Positions 57,596 to 64,000 of a DNA stretch of 64,000 bases are shown here, piece after piece. The notes below the pieces were generated by a model that worked only from the letters and a program-made list of their open reading frames with translations, did not search any database and was not told where the DNA came from. The stretch is from contig OY969763.1 in NCBI GenBank assembly GCA_963702845.1, positions 3,296,001 to 3,360,000 of the forward strand, read 5' to 3'. Both the position numbers and the translations under genes were made by a program. Source of the stretch: an uncultured Verrucomicrobiae bacterium (lineage in GTDB: Bacteria > Verrucomicrobiota > Verrucomicrobiia > Limisphaerales > Palsa-1400). Each line of letters begins with the position of its first letter. Within the stretch, counting starts at the first letter, position 1.

Positions 57596-59874
57596 GCGGC
57601 AGCAATTCGGGCAGGCGCGGGTGCTGCGGGCAGGTCCCTCGCCCCGCCGGGTGGCGGAACTGAATCTGTGGAGCCGTTTGCGGGATGTTCAAACAGCAGG
57701 GTCTGCCGCGCAGATTGCGGCTGGGGTTGGGTCGTTGTTTCTGAAACTAAAAGTTTGCTGGGCAGGTCCAGGCGCATCGTCGTGCCCTTATTCACCTTAC
57801 TGACCACACTCAAATCGCCGCCATGCAGAGTGGCGATCTTGCGACAAATGGCGAGGCCGAGGCCGAAGCCGCGCGCGCTGTCGCCTGTGGTTTTCGTTGT
57901 AAAGTAAGGTGCGAAAATGCGATGCAAATCTTCAGGGCTGATCCCTTCACCGTGGTCGATGACCTCGACACGATACCAATCCCGGCTCATTTCCGTCTTC
58001 GGCAACGCCGCCAAGGCGATTTCGATGCTCGACCGGTCCTGCGACGCATCCACTGCATTGGAAAGCAAATTGCAAATCAAACGTTTGATCAACGTCTGGT
58101 CCATTTCGATCGCCGGTTGCAGGTCGCTCGTAAAATTTATTGAAATGTTCTTTAGATCAGCGCGCGTTTGCACCAACTCGGCGGCTTCTTTGATCGTTTC
58201 GTGCAACGGCGTCAATTTCGCGTTCAGCTTGTTCGTGCGCGAGAAGAATAATGCTTCATTGATGTAAGTGCGCACGGTTCCCAGATTACGCAAAGCCACG
58301 GGCGCGAGTTCGCCATACGGGCCGGCGGCTTGTTCCTGCTCTTGAAACAATTGCAGGAATGTGTGCACCGGCGTCAGCAAATTATTCAGATCATGCGCCA
58401 GTCCACGCGACATCCGTCCCAACAACTCCTGTTCCTGCGACTTCTGCACCTGGTCGCGCAACCGGACCTGGTTTAGCAGCAGACCAAGATCCGTCGAAAA
58501 CTCGCTCAGCAGCCGCAGGTCATACGGCGTGAACACTTCGTGGTTCGACTTGGGCCCGAGCAACATCAATCCCACCAACCCGTCCGACGAAAAGAATGGA
58601 AAACAAAATTCCGGCTCAAACGGTTCCAACAAAACCCGCGCGGCGCGCTCGACTTCCGTGCCCTCGTTTCGTGTATAGGTTGCGTTGCAAGAAAGATACG
58701 GAGCGCGCGTCTCAAGAAAATAGCGCGCCACCGCTGAGTCCATCTTCAGCTCTGGCAATGCCACATGCGGACGCGATGGAAACGAGTGATACAACATGAA
58801 CCCGCGCGACGTCTCATCAAGCAAGATCAACTCGTAGCTGTTCACCCGCATCGTTTTCGAGAGCAATTCGTTCATTTCCTCCAACAAAATTTCGGGGTCA
58901 GGATACGAACGCATCATGTCGATCAAACCCTGCACCCGCGCGTGATATTCAAAACGATCACCCAAAATTTTACGTTCCAACGCGTCGGTTCCCTTGCCAA
59001 AGAACTGCGGGAAAAAGAGCGAAGCCGTAAGGGCGCTTGCGAAGACAACGCCCAGCGCCGCAAAGAAGGAAAAAGCGGTGAACGAATCCTTGTACATTTC
59101 TTTAATCACCAGAAGCATCATCAAACCCACGATGAACATGAAGCTCATGCGGACGATTTGTGCCGCGAATCGACTGAGCGTGACGTGAATGTCGAGCAGT
59201 TGGTGCTGTAGCACGCTGTAGGCAACCACCGTTAAATAGAACATCGCTGCCAAATGTCCGAGCGGGTAGAATGGCCAGTTCGTTAACGGATACTTGTCGA
59301 TGTGCAACAACGGCATCAAGTCGTTCGTTCCACATAACCAGAGCATGAAAATTGCGATCAACATCGCGCGCAGCCGCGTCCGCAAAAGCGGTGCGGCAGT
59401 CTTTTGCTTGATGTAGAGCACCGAAACCAGTGCGACCGTTTCAATGACGTAAAAAATCGAAAACACGTGAAACATCGGTCCGGGAACCGCGTAATAGCCG
59501 AAGTGCAACATGCGCACGCCGACTACGAATTTGTCGAAGAATAAACTGACGGCGATGATCGAATGAGCCGCATAAATCCAGGGAGCCCACCGGCGCACAT
59601 CAACTCCCGCGACCAGCATGCACAAATGAGAAATGCTCAACGGCATGAAGATGACGCCCAATTGCAACACTTTCGCCCAAACGAACGCCTCAGCCGGCGG
59701 CAGCGGCACGGTGCGGTTCAGAAAAATCGATCCAATATTCCAAAGCGCAATGCACGTCCCCCACAGCAAGTACACTTGCTTCAGCCGCGACCGAACGTCG
59801 CGTCCGACAACCAACAGCGTCAACACGACATTGAAAATCGTGACGCTTAAAGCTGTGATTTGCAGGAAATTCAT
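57592..59874 (-). CDS. HisKA_7TM-type membrane sensor + GAF histidine kinase
   Basis: About 7-9 N-terminal TM segments; GAF (LVGLMLLGPK..FTPYDLRLL); LAHDLNNLL; NLLSNA; DHGEG; GFGLGL. ATG overlaps the fabF-like stop. Confidence 0.9.
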   Translation of the reverse strand: MNFLQITALSVTIFNVVLTLLVVGRDVRSRLKQVYLLWGTCIALWNIGSIFLNRTVPLPPAEAFVWAKVLQLGVIFMPLSISHLCMLVAGVDVRRWAPWIYAAHSIIAVSLFFDKFVVGVRMLHFGYYAVPGPMFHVFSIFYVIETVALVSVLYIKQKTAAPLLRTRLRAMLIAIFMLWLCGTNDLMPLLHIDKYPLTNWPFYPLGHLAAMFYLTVVAYSVLQHQLLDIHVTLSRFAAQIVRMSFMFIVGLMMLLVIKEMYKDSFTAFSFFAALGVVFASALTASLFFPQFFGKGTDALERKILGDRFEYHARVQGLIDMMRSYPDPEILLEEMNELLSKTMRVNSYELILLDETSRGFMLYHSFPSRPHVALPELKMDSAVARYFLETRAPYLSCNATYTRNEGTEVERAARVLLEPFEPEFCFPFFSSDGLVGLMLLGPKSNHEVFTPYDLRLLSEFSTDLGLLLNQVRLRDQVQKSQEQELLGRMSRGLAHDLNNLLTPVHTFLQLFQEQEQAAGPYGELAPVALRNLGTVRTYINEALFFSRTNKLNAKLTPLHETIKEAAELVQTRADLKNISINFTSDLQPAIEMDQTLIKRLICNLLSNAVDASQDRSSIEIALAALPKTEMSRDWYRVEVIDHGEGISPEDLHRIFAPYFTTKTTGDSARGFGLGLAICRKIATLHGGDLSVVSKVNKGTTMRLDLPSKLLVSETTTQPQPQSARQTLLFEHPANGSTDSVPPPGGARDLPAAPAPARIAAA

Positions 59875-61139
59875 TCGCCGTGACCGCTATATTGTTTGAG
59901 AACCAGGCACGCGTAACGACCACCAAAACCCGCATTGAGATTCACCGCCACACGCACCGGATACGGGCGCGATTTCCCACTGACATAATCCAAATCGCAA
60001 GCCGGATCTGGATCGCGCAAATTAATTGTCGGCGGAATTTCCTGATGAAAAATCGACATGGCGCAAATCGTGGTCTCGATCGCTCCCGATGCGCCCATCA
60101 AATGGCCGGTGATTGGTTTCGTGGCGCTGACCGCAAGACGCTTCGAATGGCCGTTGAAAACCTTGCGGATAGCGCGCGTCTCAATCGGATCGTTCAATGG
60201 AGTCGCCGAGCCGTGCGCGTTGATGTAATCAACCTCATCCGGATTCACTCGCGCCTGGCGCAATGCTTTCTCAATCGAACGAGCATAACCAATCCCTTCC
60301 GGATGCGGATCCGTCGCGTGATACGCTTCGCAACTGCGTCCGTGTCCAACAACCTCCGCATAAATCCGCGCGCCGCGGCTCAACGCATGGGTCAACTCTT
60401 CTAAAACGAAAAATGCCGCGCCTTCCCCCAAAACAAATCCATCGCGCGACTTGTCGAACGGCTTCATTGCCGTGTGTGGGTCATCATTGCGTTCCGTCAT
60501 CGCCCGAATTCGGCAAAAGCCCGCGTGCAACATCTCCATCGACTCCTCCGCGCCCCCCGCAACAATCACATCCACTTCATCCGACCGAATCATGTGCGTC
60601 GCGTAACCAATCGCATCGTTACCCGAGGCGCAACCGGAACAATATGTCATCGCATGGCCGCGGATCCCTAAATGCAAACCAATCGTGCTGCTGCCCTCAC
60701 CGCAATAACCAGCGACGACATTGTAAGGATGTAATGATCGATAATTCTGATCGTGGCTGTTAAATGAATCCCGTGCCTTGATGATGCTGCCGGCGCCGCT
60801 GATCGTCGTGCCTTCCACCACACCGAGCCGATCCGGATCAAGTTCCGTAAGAGCAATCTTCGCATCCTCCGTCGCCAACGTTGCGGCGGCGACACCATAT
60901 TGAACCGTGCGATCAAATCGCCCGGCCTTGTTCGTTTTCAGATAATGTGTGACATCGAAATCCTTAACTTCCGCGGCAATCTTCACCGGCATATCACTCG
61001 CATCAAACCGGGTCACCGGCGCAGCGGCGCTATTGCCTTCGCGGACGTTCGTCCAAAATTCCTTGAGGTCCTTCCCGCATGGGGAAATTACTCCCATACC
61101 AGTGATGACAACTCGACGCGACGGTAGGTCTTTGGTCAT
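59871..61139 (-). CDS. fabF: Beta-ketoacyl-ACP synthase II-like ketosynthase
   Basis: RRVVITGMG; catalytic Cys in CSGCASG; PFDKSRDGFVLGEG; YINAHGSAT; KPITGHLMGA; GFGG. Confidence 0.88.
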   Translation of the reverse strand: MTKDLPSRRVVITGMGVISPCGKDLKEFWTNVREGNSAAAPVTRFDASDMPVKIAAEVKDFDVTHYLKTNKAGRFDRTVQYGVAAATLATEDAKIALTELDPDRLGVVEGTTISGAGSIIKARDSFNSHDQNYRSLHPYNVVAGYCGEGSSTIGLHLGIRGHAMTYCSGCASGNDAIGYATHMIRSDEVDVIVAGGAEESMEMLHAGFCRIRAMTERNDDPHTAMKPFDKSRDGFVLGEGAAFFVLEELTHALSRGARIYAEVVGHGRSCEAYHATDPHPEGIGYARSIEKALRQARVNPDEVDYINAHGSATPLNDPIETRAIRKVFNGHSKRLAVSATKPITGHLMGASGAIETTICAMSIFHQEIPPTINLRDPDPACDLDYVSGKSRPYPVRVAVNLNAGFGGRYACLVLKQYSGHGE

Positions 61140-61333
61140 TTGGATTTGGGTATTCTGTATTTAAAAATGGCTGTAGTTAGTTGTAATCGCCGATCAGTCT
61201 CTCCAACCTTCTCGACTAGCGTGTTCTCCTCGAATCTCAATTGCATTTCCAATGCCGATAGCAATGCCAAAGCCATCGCGCAACACGCGAACATGGCTGA
61301 CACAGACACTATCGGTAAAAGCCCTAAACTCAT
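61136..61333 (-). CDS. Possible small membrane protein coupled to the ketosynthase
   Basis: MSLGLLPIVSVSAMFACCAMALALLSAL... one hydrophobic segment; stop overlaps the fabF ATG (ATGA). Confidence 0.35.
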   Translation of the reverse strand: MSLGLLPIVSVSAMFACCAMALALLSALEMQLRFEENTLVEKVGETDRRLQLTTAIFKYRIPKSK

Positions 61334-61568
61334 CGCCGGGTTTTTACTGTATAAAAACAAGAAAATCAAATGTAATGACCAACTATTTCCATGCCAATTC
61401 CTCTCTTTTTACCTATGAAAACACAATCGCCAACCGCGTAAGGAAGTCAGTTACAAAGTAGCGCCCTGTATAAAATACAGTGACCCCTGCTCATTCCCGG
61501 CAAGGGTCACCATATTTAAAGGAATTCGCAGCCTTGACCTACATCAACATTCAGTCGAGCCCGCTGGC

Positions 61569-62852
61569 TTAGAAATGGAAGCCGAGACTCGCAGACAACG
61601 CATGGCTGACAAACCGGTAAGTTCCATTGATCCCCGGCTCATCGGTGATCGTTCGGTCCGGCCCGTATGCAAATTGATACGTCACGTCCCAACTGATGCA
61701 CTTGTAGCTTTTGCCAAAACCAAGACTAAAAATGTGCCGGTCCGAATCCGGAACAACCGGATTGAAGTGCTCGTCCGGCGTCGAGTTCATGCTGTAGATA
61801 TAACCACCGCTAACGTGCCAATTGTTCTCCAGGTAGCGCGTCGCGCCAAATTCCAACATCCACGACGATTGCCAATCCAGCGCCAACGACTTTACACCAG
61901 TGAATTGTTTCACAAGCGCGAGGCTTTTCAACCGATGCCAATCCGTCCAATCGGCATCAAATTCGAAATTCCAATTCGTATTCGGCCGGTACGAATAACC
62001 AGCCACAATCGTCTGTGGAAACTTGAACGCAGTATGCGCGTCTTCACCTTGCACATTTAACGAGAACGGAACCACCAGCTTCGTATCTGAGTGCCCGGTC
62101 AGGTCAAATGTCGTTTCGCTGCGATACGTCACACCGAACGAATGCTCACAACAAGGTTGCCAGAGAGCGCCGATATTATAACCCCAGGCATCATCACGTC
62201 CGCGAAAACGCGCGTGATCCACCCCAAACGGTTGAAACACCAATTCCGATTCCGCATGGTTCCATGTCGGTCCCGCCGCGATCGATAACGTCTTGAACGG
62301 CTTGAACGCAATCACCGGGTTCACCGTGATATACATCAGTTGCCCTTTCTTAGGCACATTGAACGCCGACGCCGGATTGTTCAAAAATGGCGCATTATCC
62401 TGCCACTCCAGTCCAAGTCCGTATGGCGAATAAACACCCAAACCCAACGACAACGGAACATCCGTCGGCAGCTTCGCCGTCATATAAAACTGCGGCACCA
62501 CCTGCAGCTTCTGCTTCGTGTTCACCGAATCCGCGCCATTCTCGAAATGGTCGTTCATGTAAATCCCGTAAATTCCGCTGCGCGTATTAATTCCGTCCAA
62601 CTGGGTGATTCCGGCCGGATTGTAGTAAATAGCAGATGGATTATCTGCCGTAGCTACAAACGCATTACCACGTGCAGTGGCAAAAGCGTCCTGGTCAGGT
62701 AGCCGAAGGCCTAACGCAAAAATGTGCGCGGGCAAAAGCAGGGTTGAAATGGTTAATGCGAAACCAAAAGGTTTCGTCACCTTCAGGCGACTCGCAATTG
62801 TTTTCAAAATAAAAATTTTGTTGGTTGACAGCTGCATACGAGCCACGGACAA
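61569..62852 (-). CDS. OmpP1/FadL outer-membrane transporter for long-chain fatty acids or hydrophobic compounds (start uncertain)
   Basis: ARGNAFVATADNPSAIYYNPAG, SPYGL, INPVIA-like motif, PDSDR, C-terminal F. Confidence 0.92.
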   Translation of the reverse strand: MSVARMQLSTNKIFILKTIASRLKVTKPFGFALTISTLLLPAHIFALGLRLPDQDAFATARGNAFVATADNPSAIYYNPAGITQLDGINTRSGIYGIYMNDHFENGADSVNTKQKLQVVPQFYMTAKLPTDVPLSLGLGVYSPYGLGLEWQDNAPFLNNPASAFNVPKKGQLMYITVNPVIAFKPFKTLSIAAGPTWNHAESELVFQPFGVDHARFRGRDDAWGYNIGALWQPCCEHSFGVTYRSETTFDLTGHSDTKLVVPFSLNVQGEDAHTAFKFPQTIVAGYSYRPNTNWNFEFDADWTDWHRLKSLALVKQFTGVKSLALDWQSSWMLEFGATRYLENNWHVSGGYIYSMNSTPDEHFNPVVPDSDRHIFSLGFGKSYKCISWDVTYQFAYGPDRTITDEPGINGTYRFVSHALSASLGFHF

Positions 62853-63111
62853 GAGAAATATTCGTGCCAGTCTCAGAAGCGCGAAACACCGCTCGTTACT
62901 AACTGACTATGTGACACTTATAGAAGATTAGATACAGAGCCAGAGTTACCCGAAAGTTCGTAAAAATGGGCAATCCACCGTTTTTTTGACAGAAATCACC
63001 CTTTCGCCTCCACATTCGCGGCAGAAGTCGCGCGTGAAATCGTGAAGCTGCTTTTTCAGTTTCCAGAGCTTTTGCGTCCGAAACGCAGCCGCTTTATTTC
63101 CCGTGTTCTCA

Positions 63112-63143
63112 TTCAAAGTTCAGCGTTCGACGTTCAAAGTTCA
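63112..63143. repeat. Heptamer tandem micro-repeat
   Basis: ttcaaag ttcagcg ttcgacg ttcaaag ttca. Confidence 0.65.
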
Positions 63144-63182
63144 TCTTTTCCCCTTCGCATCCTTCGCGCGAAACCTTCTCCC

Positions 63183-63226
63183 AAAAAACAAAAAGCTCCC
63201 GTCCAGTCTTGCGACTGAACAGGAGC
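63183..63226 (-). terminator. Intrinsic terminator closing the large structured RNA
   Basis: GCUCCUGUUCAGUC-GCAA-GACUGGACGGGAGC-UUUUUGUUUUUU: 14-bp stem with two G.U pairs that work only on the minus strand. Confidence 0.9.
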
Positions 63227-64000
63227 AAATTGGGGGATGGGAGTGCGCCACTCTCTCTTTCCCGCACCGATGTTAGGCACCTTGCAAGCAAGGTCACCGG
63301 TTTCCCGACGCCATTCTCCACGGCAAGCGGAGTTTATTTCGGCCTCATAGCAGGGCCGTTGATCTCGGTTGCCCGGACCAAATTTGAGTGAGGCCTCTTG
63401 GCTCGCTTAGGCTGGCGTTTGCACCGCCGGCTTACGAACCAGGTCAAGACACGCTTGTGACTGCGGCTTCGCGTCTTAACCACTTTGCGCTGGGTCGGCC
63501 ACCGCTTTTGACAGTGCGTTGGCCCAGTGCTACGGGTCTGACCTCTTAACTCTCAGGTTGCTTTTCGCTCACAAGCCAGCGGTTCTTTTTTTAGAATCGC
63601 CGACGTTTCGGAAGGTTTCAAAGGCCTTGCCTTGGCCAGGTTGTCCTTCCCGGTTCGCTCGCTCACTTTGTCCCATCTTTCGATGTCTTTCGTTTGGCCG
63701 ATGCAAAAATTAATCTGCAACGCCAGAGTCGTTCGAACCGTGCTGATGCACAGTAGCAACCGATTACCCTCTGGGTAACTGCGATTCGCTCAAATCCGAA
63801 ACAGACTTGAACTACTGACTCGACTCGGAACGGTTTCTATTTCGTTCCTGATCGCTCAGTTCCTTTTTCGCGTTTACTGATGGCGCGCGAACGCCACCAG
63901 AGGAACTAGTGAATCCTGCCTCCGGTCTCCGCTCCTCACGGATCGGACTTAGAGGGACCAAGCGAACCAGCCTCGCTCGATCTTTCCCCGGTTGCCCGGG
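63183..64000 (-). ncRNA. Candidate large structured ncRNA, over 800 nt, 5' end beyond the window (possibly MISL-class)
   Basis: No credible ORF; dense series of hairpins with GCAA/GAAA/GUGA loops and G.U pairs on the minus strand; ends at an intrinsic terminator. Confidence 0.75.

What the first reader, a model, noticed from the sequence alone, without database searches (positions are those of the whole stretch)
63183..64000. Large (over 800 nt) highly structured non-coding RNA on the minus strand
Seen: at least 820 nt with no credible ORF. The minus strand folds into back-to-back hairpins: CCCGG-GCAA-CCGGG (63987-64000); UCC-GUGA-GGA (63933-63942); CUGGUGGCGU-UCGC-GCGCCAUCAG (63877-63900) nested in AGUUCCU/AGGAACU; GUUACCC-AGA-GGGUAAU; CAUC-GAAA-GAUG (63674-63685); GUUAAGACGC/GUGUCUUGAC (63443-63480); GGCGGU-GCAA-ACGCC (63414-63428); CGG-GCAA-CCG; CGG-GAAA-CCG. 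A 14-bp GCAA-capped terminator with a U tract follows. GNRA loops and G.U pairs both favour the minus strand. I found no rRNA, RNase P, tmRNA or group I/II intron signatures. Established: the MISL motif (Mostly Independently Structured, Large) is an RNA of about 800 nt and unknown function reported from Verrucomicrobia, which fits lineage and architecture. Inference: this is a MISL member or an undescribed large RNA class, transcribed independently.
Basis: partly seen in the sequence, partly recalled or inferred. Interest (0 to 1): 0.85.

Follow-up and report, generated by a model that had tools for sequence, protein, structure and literature searches.

The report
Known MISL RNA gene, fuller anatomy
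The flagged gene-free stretch encodes MISL RNA, a large folded bacterial RNA that is already catalogued but has no known job; its surroundings suggest it is made like ribosomal RNA and switched by the protein that starts DNA replication.

Summary
Window 63240-64000 (minus strand) matches Rfam MISL (RF03079) at 553.7 bits against a cut-off of 274.6. In the whole genome the match is full length, at 573.3 bits, and there is one copy. It is therefore a member of a known family. This scan has met MISL before on at least five other genomes, with the same DnaA-box and rRNA-style-leader notes.

1. The transcript is about 880 nt. It starts about 59 nt upstream of the Rfam model, beyond the window end, and ends at a covarying terminator at 63195-63226.
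2. Its first bases are a boxA-like 11-mer. It matches this genome's own rRNA leader in 10 of 11 positions.
3. Phased DnaA-box-like sites precede the promoter. In 48 loci there are on average 3.1 per 250 nt, against 0.06 downstream. The locus is not at the GC-skew origin.
4. Three long-range helices are absent from the nested Rfam consensus. Two of them are strongly supported by compensatory changes.

Function remains unknown. My best guess is an abundant trans-acting folded RNA whose synthesis is tied to DnaA status.

The parts
63240..64000 (-). MISL RNA core (Rfam RF03079 model positions 8-751). It continues 7 nt beyond the window end to 64007. A further ~59-nt conserved leader, the promoter and the DnaA-box-like sites also lie beyond the window, at window-equivalent 64008-64250 (G000:C1:3360008-3360250).
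   Evidence: 553.7 bits against a cut-off of 274.6, E 1.4e-168, cut at the 5' end by the window; full match at G000:C1:3359240-3360007 (-), 573.3 bits, model 1-751; leader, extended -10 element and boxes.
63966..63970 (-). Hairpin-loop CUGGU, 5' strand of candidate long-range helix PK3 (partner 63743-63747).
   Evidence: 97.1% of cells paired in 55 distinct sequences. 3 of 5 pairs have a change on both sides, but only 3 cells, so the support is weak to moderate.
63755..63761 (-). GGUUGCU in the internal loop of the CGCAG/CUGYG hairpin, 5' strand of pseudoknot PK1 (partner 63556-63562).
   Evidence: RNAalifold proposed it; 98.4% paired in 27 sequences; 96.9% paired in 55 distinct sequences, with 6 of 7 pairs changed on both sides; two distant lineages have wholly different but complementary strands.
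63743..63747 (-). AUCAG, 3' strand of PK3.
63569..63575 (-). CUUGUGA, 5' strand of pseudoknot PK2 (partner 63454-63460).
   Evidence: 96.7% paired. 6 of 6 counted pairs have changes on both sides, in 43 cells.
63556..63562 (-). AGCAACC, 3' strand of PK1, directly 5' of the long-range helix.
63542..63554 (-). GAGAG-UUAAGAGG, 5' strand of the long-range helix of the Rfam consensus. It encloses three hairpins (partner 63386-63393).
   Evidence: consensus line (((---- ((((pairs 570-581 with 736-744 kept in 25-27 of 27 sequences.
63443..63480 (-). Hairpin GUUAAGACGC/GUGUCUUGAC. Its loop holds UCACAAG (63454-63460), the 3' strand of PK2.
63386..63393 (-). CCUCACUC, 3' strand of the long-range helix.
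63226..63236 (-). Conserved C-rich linker (CCCCCAAUUUG) between the end of the Rfam model and the terminator. It is not part of the Rfam model.
   Evidence: nearly invariant columns in 27 and 57 sequences.
63195..63226 (-). Intrinsic terminator stem-loop (14 bp, GCAA loop).
   Evidence: 11 of 12 outer pairs with compensatory change, 98.8% paired; 11 of 12, 96.2% paired.
63183..63194 (-). U tract, the likely 3' end of the RNA.
   Evidence: The T-rich run is conserved after the stem in most rows of the alignment.

Best explanation
SHOWN: this is the single-copy gene of a MISL RNA (Rfam RF03079). Its conserved secondary structure is backed by extensive compensatory change.

INFERRED FROM CONSERVATION: it is a self-contained transcription unit of about 880 nt, made of these elements in order.
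- An extended -10 promoter (TGnTAAAGT) is followed 6-7 nt later by the start of the RNA, just before GUUC.
- The first bases are a boxA-like 11-mer of the kind that loads the Nus antitermination complex on rRNA transcripts.
- A variable covarying hairpin follows, then the 768-nt Rfam core, a C-rich linker and an intrinsic terminator.
- Upstream of the promoter lie five phased DnaA-box-like 9-mers, at about -50, -60, -80, -160 and -180 here.

The core is not a string of independent hairpins. Two well-supported pseudoknots and one weaker loop contact tie the 5' domain, the strand entering the central long-range helix and a hairpin inside that helix into one knotted core.

MY COMMITMENT ON MECHANISM (INFERENCE): MISL acts in trans through its folded shape, as an abundant stable RNA that is a protein or ligand-binding scaffold or a catalyst. 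It does not act as a base-pairing sRNA or as a leader of the next gene. RNA polymerase making it is rendered Rho-resistant and folding-competent by a boxA/Nus complex. Its promoter output is set by DnaA occupancy, so its level follows the replication-initiation state of the cell.

Identity: about 0.98. Transcription-unit model: about 0.75. DnaA control: about 0.5. Trans-acting folded RNA: about 0.6. What it binds or does is unknown.
For: IDENTITY
- 553.7 bits against a cut-off of 274.6.
- 573.3 bits, model 1-751. Only one match lies over the cut-off in the 6.03-Mb genome, and 0 of 14 control genomes match.

CONSERVATION
- 28 of 41 relatives, counting this genome, have a match over the cut-off, one each.
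- 8 of 150 other genomes sampled across the phylum have it, in three families.

STRUCTURE
- RNAalifold on 27 sequences gives 223 pairs, 109 of them with a compensatory change.
- The minus strand folds with z = -6.12.

5' LEADER
- The 60 nt upstream of the Rfam start are conserved in 26 of 26 aligned loci.
- They are also conserved in the 57-sequence alignment, where GUUC.UUGA is invariant.
- Seven loci from three other families have them too.

PROMOTER
- A TG.TA...T column block lies 6-7 nt before the leader.
- Two distant loci show a -35 hexamer TTGACA with a plausible -10 hexamer at the same place.

boxA
- MISL has GTTCATTGAAA and this genome's rRNA leader has GCTCATTGAAA.
- The 16S-23S spacer has GTTCTTTAACA and GTTCTTTGACA.
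- The published consensus is GYTCTTTAANA (PMC5725501, passages read).

DnaA BOXES
- The consensus TTATNCACA, with one mismatch allowed, is taken from PMC2533591 (passages).
- In 48 loci the mean is 3.1 sites in the 250 nt upstream. It is 0.06 downstream, 0.56 in a 250-nt slice of the RNA and 0.17 in shuffles.
- 38 of 48 loci have 3 or more sites and 0 of 48 have none. Positions are fixed near -190, -150, -90, -70 and -50.
- In this genome the MISL cluster ties for the densest 400-bp window with the dnaA promoter region.
- The boxes stayed with MISL when the ancestral neighbour operon moved away. There are 0 boxes upstream of that gene's present site.

PSEUDOKNOTS.

RNA EVIDENCE (A HINT ONLY)
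- 4 of 4 soil or rhizosphere RNA libraries from 4 studies hold 353-1426 assembled contigs at least 85% alike to the RNA.
- Their summed word depths reach about 6.5e5.
Against: - No experiment bears on any step. No binding of DnaA or Nus factors is shown, and neither end of the RNA is mapped.
- The runs laid are contigs of relatives, not of this organism. The best holder has 0.47 of the words. By the tool's own caveat, contigs show neither strand, ends nor level, and DNA can be present in RNA libraries.
- The boxA-like motif is short. A loosened 11-mer pattern occurs 67 times in this genome. Its 5' half can also pair with GARC to form a 4-bp hairpin, so it could instead be a 5' stabilising stem.
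- The DnaA-box match allows one mismatch, and the genome holds 2537 such sites. Another regulator with a similar site is not excluded.
- MISL was not found in 12 of 41 relatives. It is therefore either dispensable or was missed in fragmented assemblies.
- PK3 rests on only 3 compensated cells.
- All pair counts come from MAFFT alignments of related sequences, and relatedness inflates the shuffle controls.
Confidence: 0.5

Rival explanations
1. The DnaA-box cluster is the functional element: a replication origin, or a DnaA-titrating or recharging locus in the manner of the non-origin DnaA-box clusters of other bacteria. In this reading MISL transcription next to it mainly modulates DnaA occupancy or DNA opening.
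For: - Four sites within one mismatch lie in 130 bp. This ties with the dnaA promoter region for the densest window in the genome.
- The boxes sit about two helical turns apart, in one orientation.
- The 100 nt before the promoter are 62-70% A+T.
Against: - Cumulative GC skew has its minimum at 4.755 Mb and its maximum at 2.22 Mb. There is no inflection at 3.36 Mb.
- The distance from dnaA to MISL is 44 kb here, 155 kb in a second genome and 2.0 Mb in a third. In three others the two lie on different contigs.
- This reading does not explain why about 880 nt of RNA keep 109 compensated pairs and pseudoknots.
Confidence: 0.12
2. The 9-mers are DnaA boxes (or sites of another regulator) that serve the divergently transcribed neighbour operon, not MISL. 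In many relatives that operon encodes a protein with a SecDF-P1-head-like domain followed by an M23 peptidase.
For: - In 4 of 4 relatives inspected with long flanks the divergent operon is this pair.
- From the coordinates, by my own tally, the first gene lies within 5 kb of MISL in 17 of 29 MISL-bearing genomes.
- 20 of 59 loci share the upstream ORF family.
Against: - In this genome that gene sits 400 kb away, at 3,759,122, with 0 box-like sites in 1.6 kb around its start. The cluster remains in front of MISL, whose upstream neighbour is now an Ig-domain protein.
- Box positions are fixed relative to the MISL start.
- The protein occurs in 39 of 41 relatives whether or not MISL was found.
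Confidence: 0.08
3. MISL is a self-assembling RNA-only particle, like ROOL, GOLLD and OLE, which form homo-oligomers in cryo-EM. It would work as a cage or scaffold rather than as a monomeric ribonucleoprotein or ribozyme.
For: - It is in the same size class.
- It has many GNRA-type loops: GCAA, GAAA and GUGA loops are seen.
- It is apparently abundant in RNA libraries.
- PMC12286853 (abstract seen) shows that three other large ornate bacterial RNAs oligomerise.
Against: - There is no sequence or model match to those families at E <= 1.
- No intermolecular contact can be told from sequence.
- The strongest covarying long-range pairs are readily explained as intramolecular.
- MISL is a chromosomal stand-alone gene with rRNA-like signals.
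Confidence: 0.1
4. It is a cis-acting leader or riboswitch-like element of the downstream FadL-family outer-membrane transporter and ketoacyl-synthase genes, or a fragment of an intron or mobile element.
For: It is on the same strand as the FadL-family gene (61569-62852) and the ketoacyl-synthase gene (59871-61139).
Against: - A covarying terminator and about 330 nt separate it from that gene.
- Downstream neighbours differ among loci: no downstream family is shared by more than 11 of 59 loci, and none includes this locus.
- It is single copy.
- Only MISL scored at E <= 1, so no intron, RNase P, tmRNA or rRNA family matched.
Confidence: 0.02

Closest known systems
MISL RNA (Rfam RF03079)
   Same: - The match is full length at about twice the curated cut-off.
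- The same helices are present.
- There is one copy per genome.
- The lineage is the same by the labels of named homologues.
   Different: - Nothing contradicts membership.
- The conserved transcript is longer than the 751-position model. It has about 59 nt more at the 5' end (boxA-like motif plus a hairpin) and about 55 nt more at the 3' end (C-rich linker plus terminator).
- Three long-range helices are not in the nested consensus line that cmscan prints. Whether the original drawing marks them I could not check.
rRNA operon leader with boxA (Nus-factor antitermination complex)
   Same: - An 11-mer at the very start of the RNA is identical in 10 of 11 positions to this genome's own rRNA leader element. 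It fits the published consensus GYTCTTTAANA in 9 of 11.
- The product is a long untranslated structured RNA that would otherwise be exposed to Rho.
   Different: - The product is not rRNA.
- The motif is followed, not preceded, by a hairpin.
- No Nus binding has been tested.
- The cited paper states that its boxA survey did not consider non-coding RNAs.
Non-origin DnaA-box clusters and DnaA-regulated promoters (B. subtilis, E. coli)
   Same: - Several boxes within one mismatch of TTATNCACA are packed in an intergenic region away from the origin.
- DnaA is known to act as activator or repressor of transcription (PMC2533591 passages; PMC8203912 abstract).
   Different: - The controlled gene would be a large non-coding RNA.
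- The arrangement is conserved across several families of one phylum.
- Binding and direction of control are untested.
OLE, ROOL, GOLLD and raiA large structured bacterial RNAs
   Same: These are large, ornate, conserved RNAs of unknown biochemical function, likely abundant.
   Different: - There is no model match.
- The phylum is different.
- MISL is a stand-alone chromosomal gene with its own promoter and terminator.
- No partner-protein gene is conserved next to it.

Membership tests
MISL RNA (RF03079) | Covariance-model score at or above Rfam's gathering score (274.6 bits) | tested here: met
   553.7 bits for the window-truncated copy and 573.3 bits for the full copy in the genome.
MISL RNA (RF03079) | Match covers the whole model | tested here: met
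   Model 1-751 of 751 at G000:C1:3359240-3360007. Inside the window the match covers model 8-751.
MISL RNA (RF03079) | Consensus helices are formed and kept by compensatory change among homologues | tested here: met
   - In the alignment, v marks (columns that are not a standard pair) stand over only a small minority of the paired columns.
- RNAalifold on 27 homologues gives 223 pairs, 109 with a change on both sides.
   - 19 of 23 full-length named homologues are labelled Verrucomicrobiota, Verrucomicrobiae, Limisphaerales, Pedosphaera or subdivision 3. The other 4 carry other labels, probably through mislabelling or mis-binning.
It shares family or order with 28 MISL-bearing genomes.
Other large RNAs (OLE, GOLLD, ROOL, HEARO, raiA, RNase P, tmRNA, group I/II introns, rRNA) | Any match to the family's covariance model | tested here: not met
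   cmscan of 60000-64000, both strands, against 4227 families at E <= 1 returns one match only, MISL.
boxA / Nus-factor antitermination target | boxA sequence near the 5' end of the transcript | tested here: met
   GTTCATTGAAA lies at about +2..+12. It matches GYTCTTTAANA in 9 of 11 positions and the genome's own rRNA leader element in 10 of 11. The positions GUUC.UUGA are invariant in 57 sequences.
boxA / Nus-factor antitermination target | NusB/NusE binding and Rho-resistant elongation | not testable with these tools
   This needs binding assays and transcription assays.
DnaA regulon / DnaA-box cluster | Cluster of 9-mers within one mismatch of TTATNCACA | tested here: met
   Four sites within one mismatch, plus one with two mismatches, lie between -184 and -42. 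The mean is 3.1 per 250 nt in 48 loci, against 0.17 in shuffles.
DnaA regulon / DnaA-box cluster | DnaA binds and changes transcription | not testable with these tools
   This needs ChIP, footprinting and reporter assays.
Chromosomal replication origin (oriC) | Location at the GC-skew switch | tested here: not met
   The skew minimum is at 4,755,094 and the maximum at 2,220,183. The curve declines monotonically through 3.36 Mb.

The most novel reading that the evidence does not exclude
MISL is a large structured RNA wired into the cell cycle. DnaA, the replication initiator, directly sets its synthesis through five phased boxes. The RNA in turn acts on replication initiation or on cell-envelope or division functions. 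In the ancestral layout it shares its control region with an operon for an M23 peptidase. That would make it the first large ornate RNA placed in a DnaA regulon, with a knotted core that could bind a protein or a small molecule.
Probability: 0.12. Interest if true: 0.85.

Novelty: new member of a known kind. Interest (0 to 1): 0.42.

Why it matters
The class is catalogued, so the find itself is ordinary. MISL is nevertheless one of the few bacterial RNAs of this size with no known function. In the libraries searched here it appears only as a test molecule for chemical mapping.

Three features give concrete handles for experiments:
- rRNA-style antitermination at the 5' end;
- a conserved DnaA-box array at the promoter;
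- a pseudoknotted core.

They point to where the RNA starts and ends, which protein may control it, and which helices to mutate. The apparently high abundance of MISL-like RNA in soil and rhizosphere metatranscriptomes suggests it matters to a widespread group of soil bacteria.

Tried and rejected
LITERATURE
- Four searches were made for MISL. Only the Ribonanza preprint names it, in two figure legends.
- No paper in the library links MISL with GOLLD, ROOL or OLE.
- The main text of PMC5737381 has 0 occurrences of 'MISL', and its supplement is too large to read. What the discoverers wrote, including any pseudoknot, is therefore unseen.

ORIGIN HYPOTHESIS: rejected.
- There is no skew inflection.
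- There is no conserved linkage to dnaA.
- I also found no box cluster at the skew minimum.

CO-OCCURRENCE WITH THE SecDF-P1-HEAD-LIKE NEIGHBOUR: rejected. It is present in 39 of 41 relatives regardless of MISL.

5' MOTIF ELSEWHERE: the 13-mer is unique in the genome. A loosened pattern is common, at 67 sites, so motif counts alone prove nothing.

COLLECTION SCAN
Only 30 of the 120 stretches returned were MISL by nhmmer.
- It gives names, not a census.

EXPRESSION
- No indexed run holds half of the words of this locus (best 0.47). The organism's own transcript ends and strand could therefore not be read.
- The absence of cover on the flanks means nothing, because the flanks are not conserved.

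OTHER STACKED COLUMN PAIRS FROM MY SCAN
- GCUAC with GUAGC overlaps both PK1 and an Rfam helix. It shares the same few variant sequences and is left unexplained.
- Several 4-bp stacks with 2-5 compensated cells were dropped as likely chance.

ROWS DROPPED
- L015 (truncated 5' end) and L029 (divergent 5' end, split nhmmer hit) were dropped from A1 and A2.
- L015, L025 and L029 were dropped from the upstream alignment.
- 11 of 59 loci lacked full length or 250-nt flanks and were dropped from the box count.
Full report
WHAT IS THERE

The minus strand of window 63183-64000 was read and scanned against all 4227 Rfam families at E <= 1, together with 3 kb of flank. There is a single match: MISL RNA (RF03079) at 63240-64000. 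It scores 553.7 bits against a gathering score of 274.6, with E 1.4e-168. It covers model positions 8-751 of 751 and is cut at its 5' end by the window.

In the whole genome (one contig of 6.03 Mb; the window is C1:3296001-3360000) the match is complete: C1:3359240-3360007 (-), 573.3 bits, model 1-751. Only one other, partial, match exists. None of 14 control genomes has a match.

No ORF longer than 70 aa lies in the region. The minus strand folds better than its shuffles (z = -6.12, 0 of 20 shuffles as good) and better than the plus strand (z = -4.32).

HOW WIDESPREAD

- Among the 40 nearest genomes plus this one, 28 of 41 have a match over the cut-off, always one per genome. That is 19 of 24 other genomes in the same family and 9 of 16 genomes from other families of the order.
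- In a sample of 150 further genomes of the phylum at 85% completeness or more, 8 have it. They sit in three families (6 of 8, 1 of 1, 1 of 3), and one of these is in another class.
- It was not found in the four largest families sampled (0 of 15, 0 of 15, 0 of 24, 0 of 14).
Of the 120 stretches returned, 30 are MISL by nhmmer and 23 of those are full length. Of the 23, 19 are labelled Verrucomicrobiota, Verrucomicrobiae, Limisphaerales, Pedosphaera or subdivision 3.

STRUCTURE

On 27 homologues (alignment A1; L015 and L029 left out) RNAalifold predicts 223 pairs, 109 of them with at least one change on both sides.

The same run, and then a scan of my own over 57 sequences, pointed to helices that the nested Rfam consensus line leaves single-stranded. 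The 57-sequence alignment (A2) holds the 27 relatives, 23 named loci and 7 distant loci. The scan is. Counted on A2 (55 distinct rows), the three helices are as follows.

| Helix | Strands (window coordinates) | Cells paired | Pairs changed on both sides |
|---|---|---|---|
| PK1 | GGUUGCU (63755-63761) with AGCAACC (63556-63562) | 96.9% | 6 of 7 |
| PK2 | CUUGUGA (63569-63575) with UCACAAG (63454-63460) | 96.7% | 6 of 6 (43 cells) |
| PK3 | loop CUGGU (63966-63970) with AUCAG (63743-63747) | 97.1% | 3 of 5 (3 cells only) |

- The 5' strand of PK1 lies in an internal loop.
- The 3' strand of PK2 lies in a hairpin loop.
- Sliding the partners by 1-3 columns drops pairing to 24-47%.
- For PK1, two distant lineages carry entirely different yet complementary strands.
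- PK1 and PK2 cross the long-range helix 63542-63554 / 63386-63393. The RNA therefore has a knotted core rather than a row of independent hairpins.
- I could not check whether the original description already shows these helices.

ENDS OF THE RNA

The 60 nt upstream of the Rfam start are conserved in all 26 loci aligned. They are also conserved in three further families. They consist of an almost invariant GUUC.UUGA.AGARC followed by a variable hairpin that covaries.

A TG.TA...T block, which is an extended -10 element and reads TGATAAAGT here, lies 6-7 nt before it. In two distant loci a -35 hexamer TTGACA with a plausible -10 hexamer sits at the same place. I therefore place the start at about genome position 3360066, equivalent to window 64066 and so outside the window.

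After the Rfam end comes a conserved C-rich linker (63226-63236). Then follows a 14-bp terminator (63195-63226), in which 11 of 12 outer pairs are compensated, and then a U tract. The RNA is thus about 880 nt long.

rRNA-STYLE LEADER

| Site | Element | Fit to GYTCTTTAANA |
|---|---|---|
| rRNA leader, about 135 nt before 16S | GCTCATTGAAA | 9 of 11 |
| 16S-23S spacer, first element | GTTCTTTAACA | 11 of 11 |
| 16S-23S spacer, second element | GTTCTTTGACA | 10 of 11 |
| MISL, first bases | GTTCATTGAAA | 9 of 11 |

The consensus is the published boxA consensus GYTCTTTAANA (PMC5725501, passages). MISL matches the rRNA leader in 10 of 11 positions. From established knowledge of boxA, which loads NusB/NusE and makes transcription of untranslated rRNA resistant to Rho, I infer the same for this long untranslated RNA. 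This is inference only. The motif is short, and loose versions of it are common (67 sites).

DnaA BOXES

Before consulting earlier notes I saw repeated 9-mers upstream. I used the consensus TTATNCACA with one mismatch allowed, as in PMC2533591 (passages).

- This locus has sites at -184..-176, -161..-153, -82..-74 (a perfect match) and -62..-54. A two-mismatch site lies at -50..-42.
- Genome-wide there are 2537 such sites, or 0.17 per 400 bp. Only four 400-bp windows hold four sites. One is this locus and one is the dnaA promoter region, which uses the same TGTGAATAA flavour.
- Across the 48 loci with full length and flanks (11 of 59 were dropped) the mean is 3.1 sites in the 250 nt upstream. 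It is 0.06 downstream, 0.56 within the RNA and 0.17 in shuffles.
- 38 of 48 loci have three or more sites and none has zero. Positions cluster near -190, -150, -90, -70 and -50.
- The seven distant loci also carry such sites.
- This is not the origin. GC skew turns at 4.755 and 2.22 Mb, not at 3.36 Mb. The distance to dnaA varies from 44 kb to 2 Mb.

NEIGHBOURS

Here MISL lies between an Ig-domain protein gene (divergent, starting about 460 nt upstream of the inferred MISL start, about 515 nt from the Rfam match) and a FadL-family transporter gene (same strand, about 330 nt downstream).

In relatives the divergent neighbour is often an operon for a SecDF-P1-head-like protein and an M23 peptidase. 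This was so in 4 of 4 relatives inspected. By my tally from the coordinates, the gene lies within 5 kb of MISL in 17 of 29 MISL-bearing genomes.

That protein occurs in 39 of 41 relatives whether or not MISL was found. In this genome it lies 400 kb away with no boxes before it. The boxes therefore travel with MISL.

EXPRESSION

No indexed run holds this organism's locus (best share 0.47). Four RNA libraries of soil or rhizosphere from four studies hold 353-1426 contigs at least 85% alike to the RNA, with very high summed word depth. This is a hint that MISL-family RNAs are abundant. It is not proof of transcription, of strand or of ends.

VERDICT

This is a real RNA gene of a known family with unknown function. 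This scan has already reported MISL with DnaA-type sites and an rRNA-style leader on at least five other genomes. Those notes agree with what I tested here, but they are not independent evidence.

- the pseudoknotted core;
- the argument that the boxes belong to MISL;
- the same-genome boxA comparison.

My mechanistic commitment is a trans-acting folded RNA, made processively by a Nus-modified polymerase and gated by DnaA. It is inference from anatomy, and I hold it at about even odds.

Noticed in passing
G000:C1:3154355-3154490 (+), locus L002 1501-1636; outside the window: The last ~135 nt of MISL (3' domain, C-rich linker and terminator) are duplicated, with a few substitutions, directly after the stop codon of a 474-aa ORF whose C-terminus resembles a histidine kinase by eye (not scanned). 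The copy scores 40.4 bits on model 674-750. It may now serve as that gene's terminator.
   Followed up: partly
G000 whole genome; dnaA at C1:3403468-3404859 (+): dnaA lies about 1.35 Mb from the cumulative GC-skew minimum (4,755,094). It is not followed by dnaN on the same strand. No DnaA-box cluster was seen at the skew minimum, so the origin of this genome is unclear.
   Followed up: partly
Loci L104, L084, L083, L062 (genome contigs): Four contigs with full-length MISL carry non-Verrucomicrobia labels: Saccharimonadales, Dongiaceae, Sulfotelmatobacter and Bifidobacteriaceae MAGs. Mislabelled or mis-binned contigs are more likely than transfer.
   Followed up: no
L161 5422-7430, L162 6564-8620, L163 563-2248, L164 6584-8187: A conserved divergent operon lies next to MISL in relatives: a protein with a weak SecDF P1-head-like domain followed by an M23 peptidase. 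It shares the DnaA-box-bearing control region.
   Followed up: partly
G000:C1, e.g. 184473, 742602, 2666935, 2920579, 3772502, 4212388, 4520048: One search showed at least three small multi-copy repeat families, each holding a boxA-like GTTCTTTGAAA or GCTCTTTGAAA. In one family it is followed by a short hairpin-forming sequence. They may be dispersed antitermination-type leaders or a repeat element.
   Followed up: no
L029 (G022:C146:15541-16313, -): This MISL copy (481.5 bits) has a different sequence where the others have the promoter and boxA-like leader, and nhmmer splits it into two hits. It may be a rearranged or decaying copy.
   Followed up: no
window 63753-63757 with about 63529-63533 (minus strand): GCUAC, which overlaps PK1 and the CUGYG strand, can also pair with GUAGC just after AGACCCGU. 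The two most distant lineages change both partners in step, so an alternative or switching pairing is possible.
   Followed up: partly
window 59871-62852 (-): Downstream on the same strand lie a FadL/TodX-family outer-membrane transporter (427 aa) and a beta-ketoacyl synthase (422 aa). Next comes a GAF histidine kinase with a receiver protein.
   Followed up: no
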